Below the pieces are notes generated by a model. That model saw only the letters and a program-made list of their open reading frames with translations. It did no database searches and was not told the origin of the DNA. This document shows, piece by piece, positions 1 to 7,379 of a stretch of DNA of 7,379 bases; position 1 is the first letter of the stretch; each line of letters begins with the position of its first letter. Source of the DNA: a virus (Duplodnaviria > Heunggongvirae > Uroviricota > Caudoviricetes); IMG/VR virus record IMGVR_UViG_3300028969_000089. The stretch is one strand, 5' to 3'. A program made the translations under genes and the position numbers.

Positions 1-82
1 AAATGTGGCCTGGCTGCACTCTGAAGTCACCGCATGGATGGCCGGGCGCATTGCCGGACGCAAACGGGGGTACGACGCATGA
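1..82 (+). CDS. 3' end of Vis/AlpA-family small DNA-binding regulator (5' truncated by window edge)
   Basis: Aligns base-for-base with 6744..6825, the 3' end of the complete 88-aa ORF 6559..6825. Reading frame ends at stop TGA 80..82, encoding ...[26 protein letters not shown]. Confidence 0.6.
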
Positions 83-117
83 TGATGCCCGCTCTGCAAA
101 AACTCCCTTTTTCTGGC

Positions 118-147
118 TTGCCTTTTTCCGGCATTTGCGGATATAGT
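118..147 (+). promoter_or_regulatory. Sigma70-like promoter, candidate early promoter of the left operon (P4 PLE equivalent)
   Basis: TTGCCT (118..123), 18-nt spacer, TATAGT (142..147), directly downstream of the vis stop. Identical hexamers at 6861..6866 and 6885..6890 in copy B. Confidence 0.4.
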
Positions 148-210
148 TTTTCCGCTGTCGCAAAATCGGCAGCCGGGCGTGAGAACCCGAGCAATTCACA
201 GGCGACATAT

Positions 211-232
211 GACGCGCCACGCGTCTTTTTTT
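211..232 (+). terminator. Intrinsic terminator-like hairpin in the leader
   Basis: GACGCG (211..216), loop CCA, CGCGTC (220..225), then seven T (226..232). Copy B keeps a GACGC/GCGTC stem plus T7 at 6954..6975. Confidence 0.45.
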
Positions 233-390
233 GTGTCGCAATCAATGCCACAGAGCGCCAGATTATGGTGTGGTGTGTGGTCAGTCGTGCAGATGGCATT
301 CCGTGCATCCTGCCCGCGTCCGCTCATTATGCCGCAGAGTCAATGGTAGCTCAGGCGGGGCAGCCTCCGGGCTGGCCGGTATCCTGTGAA

Positions 391-452
391 GCCGGTATTC
401 TCACCCCCGTCTGGGCTATCGCCATCGAGCGTGAGAACTCCGGCGATAGCGT
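391..452 (+). ncRNA. Candidate CI-like immunity RNA core (62-nt block identical in both repeat copies)
   Basis: The 62 nt at 391..452 are identical to 7125..7186 while the 10 nt immediately upstream and the sequence downstream differ. Contains a 9-bp stem GCTATCGCC (415..423) / GGCGATAGC (442..450) with an 18-nt loop exposing GTGAGAAC (431..438), and an upstream TTCTCAC (398..404) complementary to GTGAGAA. Confidence 0.35.
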
Positions 453-480
453 TATTTGCTATTCACAGGAGGCTGCCATC

Positions 481-678
481 ATGGCTACAACCCTTACCCC
501 CTCACACCCTGAATTTGTCTTTGTGTTTGCGGCTGTCCGTCGCGCAGACCGTCATCCCCGTATCTGTATGCTTCGCACCGTCGCCGGTGATGAACGCAGT
601 GCCCGCCGTTCCCTTGTCCGTGACTATGTGCTCTCCCTTGCTGCCCGTCTGCCGGTGGTGGAGGTGTCCCGTGCGTAA
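481..678 (+). CDS. Small conserved protein (65 aa) downstream of the CI-like block; function unknown (Kil/Eps position of a P4-type left operon)
   Basis: ATG 481 preceded by AGGAGG (467..472) with an 8-nt spacer. Copy B (7215..7379) differs at only three positions across the 55 aligned codons, all synonymous third-base changes (ACA/ACG, CCC/CCT, TGT/TGC). Confidence 0.55.
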
Positions 679-958
679 TAAAAAAGCCCCTCAGACCGTC
701 TCAGCGCGTCATGACGCCCGTGAACACCTCAGCATTGAGGCTTATCATAAGCTCAACCGTGCCAGCGCCGTATCCCAGTTTGTTGGGGGTGATTTGATTC
801 ACCGTGAACTCTCCGGCCTGCATCAGCTCTACATTCCGCATATTTTCAGCTACCTGAATGAAGATATTGATTTTGTGCTGAATGAGCTGAAAGCCAAAGG
901 CCTGTGCCGCGATTTTCTCGCCCAGCAGAAAGACCGGGGAGACAGGACGCATGTTTGA
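671..958 (+). CDS. Hypothetical small protein (95 aa), probably translationally coupled to the preceding ORF
   Basis: GTG 671 overlaps the upstream stop (GTGCGTAA) and is preceded by GGAGG (660..664). No in-frame ATG. The long 190-aa frame 386..958 would have to run through the conserved RNA block, so the short form is preferred. Confidence 0.4.
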
Positions 959-1011
959 TTTTCCCCAGCTCCACCACTTGCTCTTCCGGATACGTCCGGA
1001 GAAATCCTAAA

Positions 1012-1044
1012 AGCCCGCATGGCACAAGCTCTGCGGGCTTTTTT
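1012..1044 (+). terminator. Rho-independent terminator closing the upstream module
   Basis: Perfect 8-bp stem AGCCCGCA (1012..1019) / TGCGGGCT (1032..1039) with a 12-nt loop, followed by a T-run to 1044; A-run precedes the stem. Confidence 0.55.
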
Positions 1045-1088
1045 GTGTCTACCATTGTCCGAGGATATCCAGCTAAATCCAGTGATTA

Positions 1089-1140
1089 TTGGTATACGTT
1101 TAGGTATACGGTAGGATGTATACCTAAACGCGTATACCAA
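1089..1140. promoter_or_regulatory. Imperfect 21-bp inverted repeat with four GGTATAC/GTATACC heptamers upstream of int; candidate integrase or regulator binding region
   Basis: Left arm TTGGTATACGTTTAGGTATAC (1089..1109) and right arm GTATACCTAAACGCGTATACCAA (1118..1140) are reverse complements apart from one inserted base, separated by 8 bp, ending 20 bp before the int start. Confidence 0.4.
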
Positions 1141-1160
1141 TTCATGAAGGAGCGGCCACA

Positions 1161-2372
1161 GTGGCAAGAACGACACGCCCCCTGACCAACACAGAAGTTC
1201 TGCGCGCTAAAGCGTTAGAAAAGGATCTAACGTTACATGATGGCGATGGCCTTTTTCTGCTCGTTAAAACGAACGGTAAGAAGTTGTGGCGTTTCCGTTA
1301 TCAACGTCCAGCAACAAAACAGCGGACAATGATGGGGCTTGGTGCTTTCCCCGCCCTTTCACTTGCTGATGCTCGAAGGTTAAGAGCGGATTACCTTGCT
1401 TTGTTGGCTAATGGTATAGACCCACAAGTTCAAGCTGAATTTATCGAAGAACAACAACAGATAGCTCTAGACAGTATTTTTTCGACTGTTGCGACCAACT
1501 GGTTCCAGATAAAAAGCAAAAGCGTTACCCCTGATTACGCTAAAGATATATGGCGCTCACTGGAAAAAGACGTATTCCCTGCCATCGGGGAGATTCCTGT
1601 CCAGCAAATAAAAGCCCGAACACTAGTTGAAGCCCTTGAGCCAATCAAAGCTCGTGGAGCACTCGAGACAGTGCGCCGACTTGTACAGCGCATTAACGAG
1701 ATAATGATTTATGCCGTAAACACTGGTCTGATTGATGCCAATCCAGCATCAGGTGTTGGGATGGCCTTTGAAAAGCCCAGAAAACAAAACATGCCGACGC
1801 TGAGGCCAGAAGAATTACCAAAGCTGATGCGTTCTTTGTTCATGTCAAATCTGTCTGTTCCGACTCGCTGTCTCATTGAATGGCAGCTTCTGACTCTAGT
1901 GCGTCCTGCTGAAGCTTCCGGTGCTCGATGGGCAGAGATCGATCTCGATGCAAAGCTCTGGATGATTCCAGCCGAACGGATGAAGGCCAAACGAGAGCAC
2001 ATAGTTCCTTTATCCACGCAGGCATTAGAAATTCTAGAAGTGATGCAACCTATTAGCGCACATCGTGAGCATGTTTTCCCAAGCAGAAATGACCCTAAAC
2101 AACCAATGAATAGCCAGACTGCGAATGCCGCGCTTAAGCGCATTGGTTATGGTGGGAAGCTTGTTGCTCATGGATTACGTTCTATAGCAAGTACAGCACT
2201 AAATGAAGCTGGTTTTAATCCGGACGTAATTGAAGCGGCACTTGCTCACAGTGATAAAAATGAAGTTCGAAGAGCATACAATCGTTCAACTTACCTTGAA
2301 CAACGTATAGACTTGATGAATTGGTGGGGTGAATTTGTGCACAACCGCCACCGCCTCATGCAAGCGATTTAA
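1161..2372 (+). CDS. int: P4-type tyrosine integrase (site-specific recombinase)
   Basis: 403-aa ORF starting GTG 1161 with AAGGAG at 1147..1152. N-terminal arm-binding-type sequence (LHDGDGLFLLVKTNGKKLWRFRYQ) and C-terminal catalytic signature HGLRSIAS ... RAYNRSTY typical of P4-family integrases. Confidence 0.9.
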   Translation: MARTTRPLTNTEVLRAKALEKDLTLHDGDGLFLLVKTNGKKLWRFRYQRPATKQRTMMGLGAFPALSLADARRLRADYLALLANGIDPQVQAEFIEEQQQIALDSIFSTVATNWFQIKSKSVTPDYAKDIWRSLEKDVFPAIGEIPVQQIKARTLVEALEPIKARGALETVRRLVQRINEIMIYAVNTGLIDANPASGVGMAFEKPRKQNMPTLRPEELPKLMRSLFMSNLSVPTRCLIEWQLLTLVRPAEASGARWAEIDLDAKLWMIPAERMKAKREHIVPLSTQALEILEVMQPISAHREHVFPSRNDPKQPMNSQTANAALKRIGYGGKLVAHGLRSIASTALNEAGFNPDVIEAALAHSDKNEVRRAYNRSTYLEQRIDLMNWWGEFVHNRHRLMQAI

Positions 2373-2399
2373 TAAGATTGCACAGCAAAGGAGTCTTAA

Positions 2400-3758
2400 A
2401 TGCCAAATAACTACCATCAATACATCGAAGACGTTAGTGATGATATAAAGACATGTCTTGAAGGAATGGGATGCCAACCCATACTTTTTGTTGGATCGGG
2501 ATTAACCAAGAGATATCTTTCTGGCCCAAACTGGGAAGAACTTCTTCAGCAACTTGCTAATGAATGTCCTAACATCGATAAAAGATTTGCCTATTATAAA
2601 CAGAAATACCCCGAGTTGATTGATATCGGCAGTGTATTTTCTGATTCTTATAACGAGTGGGCATGGGGTGATGGAGAGAAAGAATTTCCAGCAGAGTTAT
2701 TTGATGCAGGCAATGAGCCAAGTATTTATTTTAAATACAAAGTATCTAGTATTTTCAACTCATTGTTACAAGAAAAAGAAATCGTAAACAACGGTGAAAT
2801 TGAACTTCTGAGAAAGATTCACCCTCATTCAATCATCACAACAAATTACGACAAATTACTTGAATCGATATATCCTGAGTTTACCCCCATTATAGGCCAA
2901 AAAATCCTTTACGCTAATCACGGTAGCATTGGTGAAATACTTAAAATACATGGTTGCTGCTCCACTCCTGAAAGCATAATAATAAACCGCGATGACTACG
3001 ATGACTTCATAAAGAAGAAGAAATATTTAAGCGCAAAACTGCTTACTTTCTTTGCTGAACACCCTCTTCTATTTATAGGTTACAGCGCAGAAGACTCGAA
3101 CATAAAAAACATACTATCTGATATTGATGAACTACTTTCAGAAAATGGAGATGTCATTCCAAATATATACATTTTAGAATGGACGAGCAAACAAAATGAA
3201 AGTGAATACCCACGCCGTGAACGGCTGATTCAAGTATCTGCAAACAAAAGCATTAGAATAAAAAGTATAGTAGCAAATGACTTCTCTTGGGTATTTTCAG
3301 CGTTTGGCGCGAACAGAGCACTTGATAACATAAATCCCAAATTATTGAGGGCACTTTTAGCTCGCACTTACGATCTCGTCAGAACTGATATACCTCGCAA
3401 TCCTGTCCAAGTTGATTACCGAGTTTTATCAAGCATTAGCGAGTCAGAAGGTGAATTAGCGAAATTATATGGTATCGCCACATCGTCAGATGGTATGGCA
3501 TTTAATGCCAGTTATCCTTTTACTTTAACCACGCTAGGGCAATCACTTGGTTTCAAAGGCTGGCATGATGCGAACAAACTATTAGAAGTAGTTAAAAACA
3601 TCACGAACGTAGACATCAAGACATTCGATAACAAATACCACTATGCAATAATGAACGGTGATGAGATTCAGTCCCATAGATATTCAAACTATCTTCGAGA
3701 ACTCCTCGAAAAGGTTAGGGATGGAGAGGAGTTTGAGTTAGGAATAAAGGCTCCATAA
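2400..3758 (+). CDS. SIR2-like (SIR2_2-type) putative NAD+-hydrolase, candidate standalone antiphage defence protein with an uncharacterised C-terminal domain
   Basis: 452-aa ORF with AAGGAG at 2388..2393. Motifs read directly: ILFVGSGLTKRYLSGPNWEELL (Gly-rich NAD pocket), ITTNYD (Asn149, codon 2844..2846), KIHG (His184, codon 2949..2951), LFIGYSAED. Gene is markedly AT-rich against GC-rich flanks and starts 25 bp after the int stop. Confidence 0.8.
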   Translation: MPNNYHQYIEDVSDDIKTCLEGMGCQPILFVGSGLTKRYLSGPNWEELLQQLANECPNIDKRFAYYKQKYPELIDIGSVFSDSYNEWAWGDGEKEFPAELFDAGNEPSIYFKYKVSSIFNSLLQEKEIVNNGEIELLRKIHPHSIITTNYDKLLESIYPEFTPIIGQKILYANHGSIGEILKIHGCCSTPESIIINRDDYDDFIKKKKYLSAKLLTFFAEHPLLFIGYSAEDSNIKNILSDIDELLSENGDVIPNIYILEWTSKQNESEYPRRERLIQVSANKSIRIKSIVANDFSWVFSAFGANRALDNINPKLLRALLARTYDLVRTDIPRNPVQVDYRVLSSISESEGELAKLYGIATSSDGMAFNASYPFTLTTLGQSLGFKGWHDANKLLEVVKNITNVDIKTFDNKYHYAIMNGDEIQSHRYSNYLRELLEKVRDGEEFELGIKAP

Positions 3759-3787
3759 TTATTCATATAGCCTTACTACTTTTTATG

Positions 3788-3809
3788 GCCGCTTTAATAG
3801 CGGCTTTTT
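3788..3809 (+). terminator. Rho-independent terminator after the SIR2-like gene
   Basis: Stem GCCGCT (3788..3793) / AGCGGC (3799..3804), loop TTAAT, then TTTTT (3805..3809), 30 bp past the stop codon. Confidence 0.55.
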
Positions 3810-3945
3810 CACAGCATTATTCATGCTTCTAGCACGATATGATGAACCGCAATAATCATAGCTAACAGGATTAATTTAAAGCATTACTCCTCGACTGAAG
3901 CGTGCTGTCATGCGAAAAAAATTTAAACTACCACGTTAGCGCGCA

Positions 3946-3964
3946 GTGCTTTCCCCGCCTCGCC
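3946..3964. other. Candidate cos site (P2/P4-type 19-nt cohesive end)
   Basis: GTGCTTTCCCCGCCTCGCC is the exact reverse complement of GGCGAGGCGGGGAAAGCAC, which I recall as the P2/P4 cohesive-end sequence. It lies between the cargo gene and psu, as cos does in P4. Confidence 0.6.
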
Positions 3965-4066
3965 CGCCCGCTTTGCGGGGCGGTTTTAATGCAGTTGCAC
4001 TGACACGCTCAGACCGCGCCGGGAATGGTGCGGTCTGCAGAAAATGAGGCAGGAAAACGCATGCAA

Positions 4067-4098
4067 AGCCATGCACCTTATCGATGCATGGCTTTTTT
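4067..4098 (+). terminator. Hairpin plus T-tract in the cos-to-psu spacer (terminator-like)
   Basis: 9-bp stem AGCCATGCA (4067..4075) / TGCATGGCT (4085..4093), 9-nt loop, T-run to 4098. It is oriented to stop plus-strand read-through into antisense psu. Confidence 0.35.
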
Positions 4099-4128
4099 CA
4101 GTAAAAACGGGCGGATTTTCGGGGAATT

Positions 4129-4701
4129 TTACACAGACTGACGTGATGCCAGTTGCGCACTTTTACGCGAAAAAATCATGTTCTGCGCAGGGGTGAATTT
4201 TTCACGGCTGTCATCCACCGAAGCCGCGTCAGGCCTGAATCCGATGGCCGTTAAAATGTCGCTATCCTGTGCGGAATAATTAATTTTTTCCCCCTTCGCA
4301 AGCCAGGACAGAAGGGCTTCACGCAGGGCATCTGTGGCACGCTGTATGGCACAGTTTCGGGCAATGACCGTCAGCTCACTGTAGCCCATCAGCTCCGGTG
4401 CCAGTGCCGCCGCCAGTGCTGTGCCGTGCTGCTGCATAAAATCATTCAGCCGGTCGCGGATGCTGATGTGCTGAACGGCTTCATGCGAACGAATATAACG
4501 ACCGGCGGCCTGATTCACCTGCCATTTTCTGACTTCGATAATATTGCGTAATTCGTCCAAGCGACTGACGTTTCTGCCTTCTCCTGACAGAAGCCGCAGA
4601 TATTCCTGTTCGGCCGCAGCCAGCTCATTTTTGCGTTGCAGCCATGCTGCTTTGTTATTCTGACAGGTGTCAAAGGCCTGCTGTAAGGCTGTGCTTTCCA
4701 T
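4129..4701 (-). CDS. psu: Polarity suppression protein Psu (P4 capsid decoration / Rho antagonist)
   Basis: 190-aa ORF whose sequence (MESTALQQAFDTCQNNKAAWLQRKNELAAAEQEY...) matches my recollection of P4 Psu in length and sequence. Last gene of the sid-delta-psu late operon. Confidence 0.85.
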   Translation of the reverse strand: MESTALQQAFDTCQNNKAAWLQRKNELAAAEQEYLRLLSGEGRNVSRLDELRNIIEVRKWQVNQAAGRYIRSHEAVQHISIRDRLNDFMQQHGTALAAALAPELMGYSELTVIARNCAIQRATDALREALLSWLAKGEKINYSAQDSDILTAIGFRPDAASVDDSREKFTPAQNMIFSRKSAQLASRQSV

Positions 4702-4774
4702 CGTTATCTCTTTCTCATCATGCTGAAGAATAAAAATACGGTGTGCGGCGACGGCCGGTGTTAACCGGCAGCCC

Positions 4775-5275
4775 TCATTCCAGACGCAGCGAATATGATT
4801 GTGTTTTTAACCGTACTGGCGGCAGTTCCTGTTTTTCATGCAGGCGTTCTGCCAGTTCGTCCGGTGTGACCGGGCGGACAATGAAGCGGTTGATGGTCTG
4901 AAGCGTTTTAAACACCAGACCACATCCCGGATCCGTGCACACATAAAAACGCTCGGTGACTTCCTGAGACAGACGCCGCGATGTTCTTGACAGTGCAAGG
5001 CCTTTACATCTCCGACAACAATATCCGGTAACAAGCATTCTTTTCGGGCGTTTCATACTGCCGGAGGCTGACGTCAGTGAATCGCGGTATCTCTGTTTGC
5101 CTGAAATGTATTCCATTCCTGAATCTTTACAGTCAGAGAAAAAGCTTTCACTCGCTTCAAATGTCGCAGAGCAATAAATATTCCGGCACTGTGCAATCAT
5201 TATCTTGGTGCCATCGTCCATGAAATGTGCGCGACGGGTGTGAGCAACATGTCCACACGACGGGCAGTAAATCAT
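4775..5275 (-). CDS. delta: Delta, Ogr/Delta-family zinc-finger late transcription activator
   Basis: 166 aa, the length of P4 Delta. Two Ogr-like halves each with Cys pairs (CPSC...CRNIYC and CCRRC...CTDPGC). Start overlaps the sid stop in an ATGA junction at 5272..5275. Confidence 0.85.
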   Translation of the reverse strand: MIYCPSCGHVAHTRRAHFMDDGTKIMIAQCRNIYCSATFEASESFFSDCKDSGMEYISGKQRYRDSLTSASGSMKRPKRMLVTGYCCRRCKGLALSRTSRRLSQEVTERFYVCTDPGCGLVFKTLQTINRFIVRPVTPDELAERLHEKQELPPVRLKTQSYSLRLE

Positions 5276-6006
5276 GACAGCAGTCCTCTGGCCTTAAGCT
5301 CTGCTCCCTGCTGGTCTATTTTGTCCTGCCACACCTTGCGCTGTGCCGGTGTGCCTGCCACCTCATAATCCATGTGCGGGAGTGTTGCCGCTGACAGTCC
5401 GGTCAGCCGGAGAACCGGCTCGCCGGTGAGGCTGATTTGCATCTGTTTAATTTTCTGTTCCAGCGATGATTTCACCTGCTGCATGACAGCCTTTTCCGGT
5501 GCGACGTAGCCCTGATGGCCGGTGGTGTTGGCGAGCGGATTTTCCTGTACCAGGATACTCAGATGCATTGCCCGGACAAGCGCCTCACAGGTTTCATTTA
5601 GGGCGTGTTCCAGCTCATGCTCTGCATACAGACTCAGAAGGTGATGATGTGCCTTCCGGTAGGCGGTGGCCGTGCTGTCACACGCCCCTTTCAGGCGTTC
5701 ACGTTCGAAATTCAGCACCACGGCCAGATTGTCATATTCCTGTACCAGCTCCCGGCGTGCCACGCGCTCAATGTGGCGCTGTTTCAGCTCGTCGCTCAGG
5801 ACACCACCGGCTGCACGAAAGGCCGTGCGCCAGTCGTCAGCGTCGTTTCCGTCGGCCTGCGCCAGCGCATTTTTTTCCTGCTCTGCCCGTTCAATGGCCG
5901 TGATGGTCTCATCCATCAGGCGGGCGTTCTCAAGATGAGCGGCTCTGGCCTTTTCCAGTTGTGCCAGCGCGGGTTGCAGATATTCAGGGATGGTGTTGTC
6001 AGACAT
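5272..6006 (-). CDS. sid: Sid, external scaffold / capsid size determination protein
   Basis: The ORF track extends to 6072, but the ATG at 6004..6006 (MSDNTIPEYL...) has a GGAG 6 nt upstream and gives 244 aa, matching P4 Sid as I recall it. The upstream ATG would overlap the predicted promoter dyads. Confidence 0.8.
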   Translation of the reverse strand: MSDNTIPEYLQPALAQLEKARAAHLENARLMDETITAIERAEQEKNALAQADGNDADDWRTAFRAAGGVLSDELKQRHIERVARRELVQEYDNLAVVLNFERERLKGACDSTATAYRKAHHHLLSLYAEHELEHALNETCEALVRAMHLSILVQENPLANTTGHQGYVAPEKAVMQQVKSSLEQKIKQMQISLTGEPVLRLTGLSAATLPHMDYEVAGTPAQRKVWQDKIDQQGAELKARGLLS

Positions 6007-6040
6007 TTTCCGGCTCCTCGTCACTTCAGGTTGAGAAAAT

Positions 6041-6096
6041 TGTGACGTACACCGGACAACAACACGACGCATTGCAGATGTGCCAGCCCTGACACA
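6041..6096 (-). promoter_or_regulatory. Candidate Psid late promoter with two Ogr/Delta-type TGT-N12-ACA dyads
   Basis: Dyads TGT-N12-ACA at 6041..6058 and 6079..6096, centres 38 bp apart. If the distal dyad is at -55 the start site falls near 6032, about 26 nt upstream of the sid ATG, and the proximal dyad near -17. Confidence 0.5.
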
Positions 6097-6175
6097 GGAG
6101 ACTCATCCTCAGACCGGCAAGCCAGGAAAAGGTCGCAGGAAAAACCGGCTTACTGTTTGTTTTTTTATATTTTAC

Positions 6176-6279
6176 TGTTCACCTCTGTTCACCATAAGAA
6201 AAAAGATAAGTAATACAGTAAGTTAAATGGTGAACAATCGCAGTAATGACTGTTCACCGTCTGTTCACCACTGTTCACC
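6176..6279. repeat. Iteron array: six TGTTCACC octamers (ori/crr-like replication element)
   Basis: Octamers at 6176, 6186, 6251, 6262, 6272 (direct) and 6229..6236 (inverted). Adjacent direct copies are spaced 10 to 11 bp, with an AT-rich stretch between the clusters. TGTTCACC is the repeat I recall as the P4 alpha-protein binding site in ori and crr. Confidence 0.55.
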
Positions 6280-6382
6280 CGCTCATGGACTTTTTGTGCT
6301 GTTTACTACTGTTTGTTTTTATTAATTCGCCGGGAATGAATAAGAAGAAACGATTTGTATTTCACTATAAAAATTACGAATT

Positions 6383-6412
6383 GCTTTAAGTGGCTTTAAA
6401 TGACTTTAAGTG
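6383..6412. repeat. Three tandem 10-bp repeats upstream of vis
   Basis: GCTTTAAGTG (6383..6392), GCTTTAAATG (6393..6402), ACTTTAAGTG (6403..6412): head-to-tail and helically phased. Confidence 0.4.
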
Positions 6413-6438
6413 GGAATGAACAAAAAACACACAGTCAT

Positions 6439-6456
6439 TGTAAGGCGGCCGGAACA
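6439..6456 (+). promoter_or_regulatory. Candidate activator dyad for the rightward late promoter upstream of vis (PLL equivalent)
   Basis: TGT (6439..6441), 12 nt, ACA (6454..6456). Placing it at -55 puts the start site near 6502, about 57 nt upstream of the vis ATG. No convincing -10 hexamer was identified. Confidence 0.25.
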
Positions 6457-6558
6457 AATCCCCCCTGTTGCGTCTGCCAAAAAGATTCACAAAATAAAGC
6501 GCTACCCGAAGCCGGACGGACTTATCCGGTGCTGTATGGACATTAACGAGGTAGCCCG

Positions 6559-6825
6559 ATGCAAGCTGTTTTTTCTTCCCCGTCTCCCTCCCCTGTGACG
6601 CCACTGATGCCGCTGCCGGACATCACGCAGGAGCGTTTTTTACGTCTGCCGGAAGTGATGCACCTGTGCGGCCTGTCACGTTCGACCATCTATGAACTCA
6701 TCCGTAAGGGGGAATTTCCGCCGCAGGTGAGTCTTGGCGGTAAAAATGTGGCCTGGCTGCACTCTGAAGTCACCGCATGGATGGCCGGGCGCATTGCCGG
6801 ACGCAAACGGGGGTACGACGCATGA
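6559..6825 (+). CDS. vis: Vis/AlpA-family small DNA-binding regulator / excisionase-like protein
   Basis: 88-aa ORF with an AlpA-type helix-turn-helix core ([43 protein letters not shown]). Position between the late promoter region and the early promoter matches P4 vis as I recall it. Confidence 0.75.
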
Positions 6826-6860
6826 TGATGCCTGTTCTGCAAAAACTCCCTTTTTCTGGC

Positions 6861-6890
6861 TTGCCTTTTTCCGGCATTTGCGGATATAGT
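6861..6890 (+). promoter_or_regulatory. Sigma70-like promoter, copy B of the candidate early promoter
   Basis: TTGCCT (6861..6866), 18-nt spacer, TATAGT (6885..6890); identical to copy A. Confidence 0.4.
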
Positions 6891-6953
6891 TTTTCCGTTG
6901 CCGCAAAATCGGCAGCCGGGCGTGAGAACCCGAGTATGTTATCGGCGACATAT

Positions 6954-6975
6954 GACGCGCCATGCGTCTTTTTTT
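6954..6975 (+). terminator. Leader hairpin plus T7, copy B
   Basis: GACGC (6954..6958) / GCGTC (6964..6968) with a 5-nt loop, then seven T (6969..6975). Confidence 0.4.
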
Positions 6976-7124
6976 GTGTCGCAATCAACGCCACAGAGCA
7001 CCAGATTATGGTGTGGCGTGTGGTTTGCCGTGCAGGTATGATCCTGTTCGCAATCGCATGTTATGCCTCTGAGTCAATGGTAGCTCAGGCGGGGCAGCCT
7101 CCGGGCTGGCCGGTTTCCGATAAC

Positions 7125-7186
7125 GCCGGTATTCTCACCCCCGTCTGGGCTATCGCCATCGAGCGTGAGAACTCCGGCGATAGCGT
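7125..7186 (+). ncRNA. Candidate CI-like immunity RNA core, copy B
   Basis: 62 nt identical to 391..452, flanked by diverged sequence. Confidence 0.35.
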
Positions 7187-7214
7187 CATTTACGCTGTTA
7201 TCGGAGGTTGCCTT

Positions 7215-7379
7215 ATGGCTACGACCCTTACCCCTTCACACCCTGAATTTGTCTTTGTGTTTGCGGCTGTCCGTCGCGCAGACCGTCATCCCCGTATCTG
7301 CATGCTTCGCACCGTCGCCGGTGATGAACGCAGTGCCCGCCGTTCCCTTGTCCGTGACTATGTGCTCTCCCTTGCTGCC
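7215..7379 (+). CDS. Small conserved protein, copy B (3' truncated by window end)
   Basis: ATG 7215 preceded by GGAGG. The 55 codons visible differ from 481..645 only at three synonymous sites. Confidence 0.5.

What the first reader, a model, noticed from the sequence alone, without database searches (positions are those of the whole stretch)
6176..6279. Helically phased TGTTCACC iteron array between the divergent late promoters
There are six copies of the octamer, five direct and one inverted, with adjacent direct copies 10 to 11 bp apart and an AT-rich stretch between clusters. As I recall, TGTTCACC is the iteron bound by P4 alpha protein in ori and crr. The element therefore appears to keep a cis replication site, implying an alpha-type primase-helicase encoded outside this window.
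Basis: partly seen in the sequence, partly recalled or inferred. Interest (0 to 1): 0.5.

Follow-up and report, generated by a model that had tools for sequence, protein, structure and literature searches.

The report
Phage P4 replication origin iterons
This is the long-known replication origin (ori) of a P4-type satellite prophage of E. coli, whose six TGTTCACC repeats are the binding sites for the satellite's own alpha primase-helicase; it is ordinary and is already annotated repeat by repeat in the P4 reference genome.

Summary
There are six exact TGTTCACC octamers at 6176-6279, five direct and one inverted, with 10, 11 and 10 bp between adjacent direct copies. Chance would give 0.22 copies in the window.

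Window 6000-6600 is 96.8% identical to phage P4 (X51522 8989-9589). All six octamers and their spacings match P4 exactly. The P4 GenBank record annotates the six homologous sites as "ori type 1 repeat" inside "origin of DNA replication", and uses the same label for the octamers in crr, downstream of alpha.

The array is therefore P4 ori itself, not crr. It lies between sid (leftward) and orf88/vis (rightward), flanked by the window's only three TGT-N12-ACA sites. It is followed by the three "ori type 2" 10-mers at 6383-6413.

The alpha gene is not in the window. In all 17 related E. coli loci fetched, a 777-aa alpha follows; in the two closest relatives measured it starts 1.2 kb past the point where the window ends. 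One was 99% identical to P4 alpha and matched the solved P4 origin-binding domain, PDB 1KA8. In the ten loci checked, a second octamer cluster (crr) follows alpha.

The same array occurs in 1051 of 5426 complete E. coli genomes. It is already known and of low interest.

The parts
6176..6183 (+). type 1 iteron TGTTCACC, copy 1
   Evidence: Exact match. Homologous to P4 'ori type 1 repeat' 9406-9413.
6186..6193 (+). type 1 iteron, copy 2 (10 bp after copy 1)
   Evidence: Exact match. Homologous to P4 9396-9403.
6194..6228 (.). A+T-rich spacer (83% A+T) between the left iteron pair and the inverted iteron
   Evidence: Composition computed. Nearly identical to P4.
6229..6236 (-). type 1 iteron, inverted copy. 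With copy 4 it forms the inverted repeat GGTGAACA-N14-TGTTCACC.
   Evidence: Exact match. Homologous to P4 9353-9360. The inverted repeat was picked up as a stem.
6251..6258 (+). type 1 iteron, copy 4
   Evidence: Exact match. Homologous to P4 9331-9338.
6262..6269 (+). type 1 iteron, copy 5 (11 bp after copy 4)
   Evidence: Exact match. Homologous to P4 9320-9327.
6272..6279 (+). type 1 iteron, copy 6 (10 bp after copy 5)
   Evidence: Exact match. Homologous to P4 9310-9317.
6150..6175 (.). A+T-rich flank (85% A+T) to the left of the array; candidate unwinding region (inferred)
   Evidence: Composition. All but one position invariant across the seven aligned P4-like sequences.
6383..6413 (.). 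three tandem 10-mers (GCTTTAAGTG GCTTTAAATG ACTTTAAGTG), the 'ori type 2 repeats' of P4
   Evidence: P4 record features 9176-9205. Identical in window and P4. This block differs in other P4-like lineages.
6041..6096 (.). two TGT-N12-ACA sites (6041-6058, 6079-6096) upstream of sid; presumed delta/Ogr activator sites of the leftward late promoter Psid
   Evidence: Pattern search. The assignment rests on prior knowledge of P2/P4 late promoters (inference).
6439..6456 (.). TGT-N12-ACA site upstream of orf88/vis; presumed activator site of the rightward late promoter PLL
   Evidence: Pattern search. The assignment is an inference.
5272..6006 (-). sid (244 aa), the left neighbour of ori
   Evidence: Homology to P4 sid. 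The exact protein is found in many P4-like elements.
6559..6825 (+). orf88/vis (AlpA-family, 88 aa), the right neighbour of ori
   Evidence: P4 ORF88. Pfam Phage_AlpA on the 88-aa homologues encoded at this position in the related loci. Translation.

Best explanation
The array is the core of ori, the vegetative and plasmid-mode replication origin of a P4-type satellite prophage. The six TGTTCACC octamers (type 1 iterons) are the recognition sites of the satellite's alpha protein. Alpha is a single 777-aa polypeptide with an N-terminal zinc-ribbon/Toprim primase, a central superfamily-3 helicase and a C-terminal winged-helix origin-binding domain. Alpha binds the iterons at ori and at a second iteron cluster, crr, which lies just downstream of the alpha gene. 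It then opens adjacent A+T-rich DNA, lays down primers and hands over to the host polymerase for theta-type replication of the excised 11-kb circle. What is shown here is sequence identity with the annotated P4 ori, the gene context, the presence of alpha and crr in relatives, and the match of a relative's alpha C-terminus to the solved P4 origin-binding domain. What is taken from the literature or inferred is binding, looping, unwinding and priming.
For: Six exact octamers against 0.22 expected. Window 6000-6600 is 96.8% identical over 100% of its length to P4 X51522 8989-9589. In the pairwise alignment of 6100-6560 every octamer and every spacing is identical to P4. The P4 record annotates those six sites as 'ori type 1 repeat' within 'origin of DNA replication', three 'ori type 2 repeat' at the positions homologous to 6384-6413, and ten more 'ori type 1 repeat' inside crr next to alpha. 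The gene order psu-delta-sid-[array]-orf88 is the P4 order. All 17 related loci carry a 777-aa protein with Zn_Ribbon_Prim/Toprim/D5_N/Pox_D5 domains, or annotated as primase-helicase, downstream. The alpha of relative L009 is 99% identical to P4 alpha, and its residues 671-770 match PDB 1KA8 at E=1e-63. Exact octamers cluster only at ori and within about 310 bp after the alpha stop in 10 relatives. In a diverged Klebsiella-like element (L020) the flanks have drifted, yet the octamer and the 2 + 1 inverted + 3 layout are kept (one copy has a single mismatch). PMC4234260 states that P4 alpha binds with its winged-helix domain at the repeats of the P4 origin and then unwinds and primes.
Against: The alpha gene and crr of this particular element are not in the window, and the source contig could not be found. 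Functionality of this copy is therefore inferred from relatives. The window's left end carries a truncated, alpha-less P4-like remnant, which shows that such elements do decay at this locus. The primary papers giving the alpha footprint on TGTTCACC could not be read in the held library. The binding statement therefore rests on the GenBank annotation, a secondary citation and my own recall.
Confidence: 0.93

Rival explanations
1. Relic origin. The iterons are intact in sequence, but the element has lost alpha and/or crr to the right of the window, so the array no longer fires and is only carried passively in the chromosome.
For: The window ends before alpha. The left 969 bases of the window are a P4-like fragment that breaks off about 6 codons into orf151 and lacks alpha. 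The survey of P4-like satellites reports variants lacking alpha (PMC8628076).
Against: All six octamers are exact and all spacings are P4-like. All 17 relatives fetched have a full-length alpha. These include the relatives sharing the identical SIR2 or Sid protein, and L019, whose ori-vis-cI region is 99.6-99.8% identical to the window.
Confidence: 0.05
2. The octamers are chiefly operator sites for a transcription regulator of the divergent late promoters Psid and PLL (for example Vis or delta), rather than origin iterons.
For: The array sits between two divergent activator-dependent promoters, and no sigma-70 consensus promoter is present. An alpha-iteron complex there could plausibly also affect late transcription (speculation).
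Against: The activator-type TGT-N12-ACA sites are separate sequences flanking the array. The same octamer recurs as a second cluster downstream of the alpha stop, where no promoter is annotated in the P4 record. The P4 record labels the sites as ori repeats.
Confidence: 0.02
3. The repetition is a chance or low-complexity artefact.
For: None.
Against: 0 of 200 shuffles reach 6 copies. The array is conserved in 1051 of 5426 complete E. coli genomes.
Confidence: 0

Closest known systems
ori of satellite phage P4 (X51522 / NC_001609, rep_origin 9086-9809; type 1 repeats 9310-9413, type 2 repeats 9176-9205)
   Same: It has the same six octamers, the same orientations (2 direct, 1 inverted, 3 direct) and the same 10/43/22/11/10-bp spacings. 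It has the same three type 2 10-mers and the same neighbours (sid, orf88). Identity is 96.8% over 601 bp, and 98% mean column identity in the 461-column alignment of window 6100-6560.
   Different: There are only a few point substitutions in the spacers (for example ATAAGA against TTAATA after copy 2, and AAATGG against AAAGGG before the inverted copy). The element sits at ssrA with a different integrase and a SIR2 gene in the int-psu hotspot, in place of P4's int/cII/beta/gop.
crr (cis replication region) of P4, X51522 4291-4590
   Same: It uses the same TGTTCACC octamer, which the P4 record also labels 'ori type 1 repeat'.
   Different: crr is two 120-bp direct repeats 60 bp apart, immediately downstream of alpha. 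The window array has no such 120-bp duplication and lies between sid and orf88, so it is ori and not crr. crr is outside the window.
Iteron origins of theta plasmids (for example RK2, R6K, pPS10) bound by winged-helix Rep proteins
   Same: Both have short direct repeats at helical spacing next to an A+T-rich stretch, recognised by a winged-helix domain of the element's own initiator. The general principle is stated in PMC2777425 and PMC4234260.
   Different: The P4 iterons are only 8 bp long. The initiator is itself the helicase and the primase. From prior knowledge, a second distant iteron cluster (crr) is required in cis.

Membership tests
P4 ori (type 1 iteron origin of P4-like satellites) | Cluster of TGTTCACC octamers in the P4 arrangement (2 direct, 1 inverted, 3 direct) | tested here: met
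   six exact copies, with positions and spacings identical to the annotated P4 repeats.
P4 ori (type 1 iteron origin of P4-like satellites) | Nucleotide homology to the P4 ori region | tested here: met
   96.8% identity over 601 bp with 100% coverage; 98% mean column identity over 461 columns.
P4 ori (type 1 iteron origin of P4-like satellites) | Location between sid and orf88/vis, within the psu-delta-sid / vis-cI-epsilon gene order | tested here: met
P4 ori (type 1 iteron origin of P4-like satellites) | Accompanying type 2 repeats (3 x 10 bp) | tested here: met
   6383-6413 is identical to P4. This block is not conserved in all P4-like lineages.
P4 ori (type 1 iteron origin of P4-like satellites) | Cognate alpha primase-helicase with a C-terminal winged-helix origin-binding domain, encoded by the same element | tested here: inconclusive
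   Not in the window, and the source contig was not found. Present as a 777-aa protein in all 17 related loci. The L009 alpha is 99% identical to P4 alpha and matches PDB 1KA8 at E=1e-63.
P4 ori (type 1 iteron origin of P4-like satellites) | Second iteron cluster (crr) downstream of alpha, required in cis | tested here: inconclusive
   Outside the window. Present in L002, L004-L011 and L020 as 3-5 exact octamers within about 310 bp after the alpha stop. L010 shows 3 copies because the locus ends about 90 bp after the third. Where both halves are present, pairs of copies recur at about 180-bp spacing.
P4 ori (type 1 iteron origin of P4-like satellites) | Alpha binding to the octamers and alpha-dependent replication | not testable with these tools
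   This is biochemistry. It is known for P4 from the literature, cited second-hand in PMC4234260.
P4 crr | Two 120-bp direct repeats separated by 60 bp, immediately downstream of alpha | tested here: not met
   No 120-bp direct repeat is found in the window's intergenic region (one search lists only the three long end duplications). The position is between sid and vis, not after alpha.

The most novel reading that the evidence does not exclude
The evidence does not exclude that the part of ori next to the invariant type 1 iterons, the 'type 2 repeat' block at 6383-6413, is a swappable specificity cassette. At least four unrelated sequences occupy that slot among 20 P4-like elements; two of the three alternatives look like short tandem repeats by eye. 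The type 1 iterons are constant in all of them, and alpha and Vis are nearly constant across the E. coli elements. The cassette might be read by an unidentified lineage-specific factor that sets replication or late-promoter control or incompatibility between co-resident satellites, such as the tandem pair seen in this window.
Probability: 0.07. Interest if true: 0.35.

Novelty: already known. Interest (0 to 1): 0.05.

Why it matters
It matters little beyond annotation. The result identifies the window as a P4-type satellite prophage and places its replication origin. It also shows that RefSeq annotation leaves this feature unlabelled: in all 20 records sampled across the ranking, out of 1051 E. 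coli genomes that carry the array, no feature is annotated under the match. The biology, in which alpha binds TGTTCACC at ori and crr, was worked out for P4 decades ago.

Tried and rejected
1. Finding the source contig, to see alpha and crr directly. Exact searches with the unusual junction at about 940-990 found nothing in the GTDB representative genomes, IMG/VR or the JGI metagenomes. No complete E. coli genome holds window 760-1180 contiguously. Exact-protein look-ups with the SIR2 and Sid proteins returned 14 related loci, but none is identical to the window; the best is 98.7% over 965-7379.

2. Reading the primary P4 replication papers (Ziegelin 1993, Tocchetti 1999, Lindqvist 1993). They are not held in the library. 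A full-text search for TGTTCACC returned only unrelated primer sequences among the 15 papers listed, out of 2,174 that hold the string.

3. Testing whether the variable type 2 block covaries with Vis. It does not. Vis is essentially identical across the three block variants found in the E. coli elements.

4. Considering that the array is crr rather than ori. Rejected on position and on the absence of the 120-bp duplication.

5. Considering that the GGTGAACA-N14-TGTTCACC stem is a terminator. Rejected: it is simply the inverted iteron pair, and the T-run is poor.

Full report
**Observation.** An exact search finds six TGTTCACC octamers in the 7379-base window, all between 6176 and 6279. Five are on the + strand (6176, 6186, 6251, 6262, 6272) and one is on the - strand (6229-6236). 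Dinucleotide-preserving shuffles give 0.22 on average and never more than 2. Allowing one mismatch adds only three scattered sites elsewhere, which is within chance. Adjacent direct copies are 10, 11 and 10 bp apart. The inverted copy lies 43 bp from copy 2 and 22 bp from copy 4.

**Identity.** Window 6000-6600 matches phage P4 (X51522 and NC_001609, 8989-9589) over its full length at 96.8% identity.
- The P4 record carries a 'rep_origin' feature (9086-9809). Inside it are six 'ori type 1 repeat' features and three 'ori type 2 repeat' features.
- In a pairwise alignment of window 6100-6560 with P4, all six octamers, their orientations and all their spacings are identical. So are the three type 2 10-mers at 6383-6413. 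The differences are a few point substitutions in spacers.
- The full P4 feature table uses the same 'ori type 1 repeat' label ten times inside 'crr (cis required region for replication)', 4291-4590. That region is two 120-bp direct repeats immediately downstream of the alpha gene.
The array in the window is ori, not crr.

**Context.** The window has the P4 late region in P4 order:
- psu (4129-4701, -), delta (4775-5275, -) and sid (5272-6006, -);
- the 552-bp intergenic region holding the array;
- orf88/vis (6559-6825, +), followed by the immunity region, with Rfam hits to isrK, C4 antisense RNA and its a1b1 targets.

The window's only three TGT-N12-ACA sites lie in the same intergenic region: two on the sid side (6041, 6079) and one on the vis side (6439). 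From prior knowledge this is the Ogr/delta activator consensus of P2/P4 late promoters. No sigma-70 consensus promoter is found there. The promoter assignments themselves are inference.

**Alpha and crr.** The window ends in the cI/epsilon region, so alpha is not visible. I could not find the source. The distinctive junction near 965 has no exact match in the GTDB representative genomes, IMG/VR or the JGI metagenomes, and no complete E. coli genome has it contiguously. Relatives fill the gap.
- In NZ_AP021894 (L002) the homologous prophage sits at ssrA. Its order is int, SIR2, psu, delta, sid, ori, vis, icd-like, epsilon, orf151, DUF5375 (cnr) and a 777-aa primase-helicase.
- Eight loci encoding the identical SIR2 protein all carry a 777-aa protein with Zn_Ribbon_Prim, Toprim, D5_N and Pox_D5 domains. 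So do six loci encoding the identical Sid protein.
- The element whose ori-vis-cI region is 99.6-99.8% identical to the window (L019) has a primase-helicase gene of the same length (2334 bp) at that position. A diverged Klebsiella-like element (L020) has one too.
- The L009 alpha is 99% identical to P4 alpha. Its residues 671-770 match the solved P4 origin-binding domain 1KA8 at E=1e-63.
- Mapping the window onto L002 and L009 puts the start of alpha about 1.2 kb beyond the window's right end.
- Exact octamers in these loci cluster in two places only. One is ori (5-7 copies). The other is a stretch within about 310 bp after the alpha stop (5 copies where the locus reaches far enough). In that second cluster, pairs of copies recur at about 180-bp spacing, which is the crr geometry.
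- In L020 the flanks have diverged, but the octamer and the 2 + 1 inverted + 3 layout persist in ori, and the octamer recurs after alpha.

**Mechanism.** Shown here: sequence identity with the annotated P4 origin, conserved synteny, and the co-occurrence of ori, alpha and crr in relatives. From the literature: P4 alpha binds the origin repeats through its winged-helix domain and then unwinds and primes (PMC4234260, citing Ziegelin and Lanka 1995 and Yeo et al. 2002). Alpha combines primase, SF3 helicase and winged-helix domains (PMC2777425) and is essential for P4 replication (PMC8628076). From my own recall, not verified here: alpha loops ori to crr, and Cnr modulates alpha binding. I could not open the primary papers.

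**How common it is.** The 161-bp array region is found in 1051 of 5426 complete E. coli genomes (1254 places). Most matches are at 95-99% identity, and no feature was annotated under the match in any of the 20 records listed.

**Rivals.**
- A relic origin, with alpha lost, cannot be formally excluded because the flank is missing. The window's left end does hold an alpha-less P4-like fragment. Against this, all 17 relatives have alpha, and the iterons here are perfect.
- A purely transcriptional role is unlikely. The activator sites are separate sequences, and the octamer recurs after alpha, where no promoter is annotated.
- Chance is excluded.

**Verdict.** The feature is the textbook P4 ori, already annotated repeat by repeat in the reference record. 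It is already known, and interest is low.

**Side observations.**
- The window is a mosaic. Bases 965-3960 are 99.9% identical to the elements integrated at ssrA, and 6007-7379 are 99.6-99.8% identical to an element at tRNA-Leu.
- Its first 969 bases are a second, diverged copy of the vis-3'/isrK/C4/cI/epsilon segment, fused to the last 12 nt of ssrA.
- The int-psu hotspot holds a SIR2_2 protein that matches the PADLOC candidate system PDC-S25.
- The type 2 repeat block is a variable cassette across lineages and does not covary with Vis.
- The type 1 copy number in ori ranges from 5 to 7 among close relatives.

Noticed in passing
window 1-969 (junction at 965-969): A second, diverged copy of the P4 vis-3'end / isrK / C4 (CI RNA) / cI-orf / epsilon segment. 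It is 99.2% identical to P4 7877-8845 and 89-98% identical to window 6744-7379. It breaks off about 6 codons into orf151 and is joined, through a 5-nt overlap (CCAGC), to the last 12 nt of ssrA, which is the attL of the next element. It looks like a truncated, alpha-less satellite lying in tandem with an intact one. The junction was not found in the GTDB representative genomes, IMG/VR, the JGI metagenomes or 5426 complete E. coli genomes, so an assembly chimera cannot be excluded.
   Followed up: partly
window 2400-3758 (+): A 452-aa SIR2_2 protein lies directly after the integrase (1161-2372), in the int-psu defence hotspot of P4-like satellites. It matches the PADLOC candidate system PDC-S25 at E=2e-84 and has weaker ThsA/LmuA/Dsr1 SIR2-domain hits. 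The exact protein is indexed in 1523 blocks of the assembly collection.
   Followed up: partly
window 6383-6413, compared with L002, L004-L011 and L013-L020: The 'ori type 2 repeat' block is a variable cassette. At least four unrelated sequences occupy this slot among 20 P4-like elements, while the type 1 octamers stay the same. Two of the three alternatives look like short tandem repeats by eye: CCTTCAGAAC-like x3 in L002 and TTGCCA every 10-11 bp in L020. The variant does not covary with the Vis protein, which is nearly identical across the three block variants of the E. coli elements. I found no explanation.
   Followed up: partly
ori of L005, L007, L008, L010 and L011, compared with window 6176-6279: The number of exact type 1 octamers in ori varies from 5 to 7 among close relatives. 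L010 has an extra 10-bp unit in the right-hand cluster. L005/L008 and L007/L011 each have one copy with a point change.
   Followed up: no
window 6041-6058, 6079-6096 and 6439-6456: All three TGT-N12-ACA sites of the window fall in the 552-bp sid-vis intergenic region and flank the iterons. They are presumably the delta/Ogr activator sites of Psid (two) and PLL (one). No sigma-70 consensus promoter is found there.
   Followed up: partly
window 3936-4011: This short stretch is 91-93% identical to phage P2 and pro147. The end of the linear P4 record (11624) aligns to window 3965. It is therefore the cos site shared with the helper phage.
   Followed up: no
window 154-426 and 6884-7160: Rfam finds isrK and C4 antisense RNA twice, once in each copy of the immunity region. 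The c4-a1b1 target element is found only in the right-hand copy.
   Followed up: no
window 965-7379: The element is a recombinational mosaic. The att-int-SIR2 part (965-3960) is 99.9% identical to prophages integrated at ssrA. The ori-vis-cI part (6007-7379) is 99.6-99.8% identical to an element at tRNA-Leu that carries a Kiwa (KwaB-like) defence gene in its hotspot (L019, strain STEC2017-197).
   Followed up: partly
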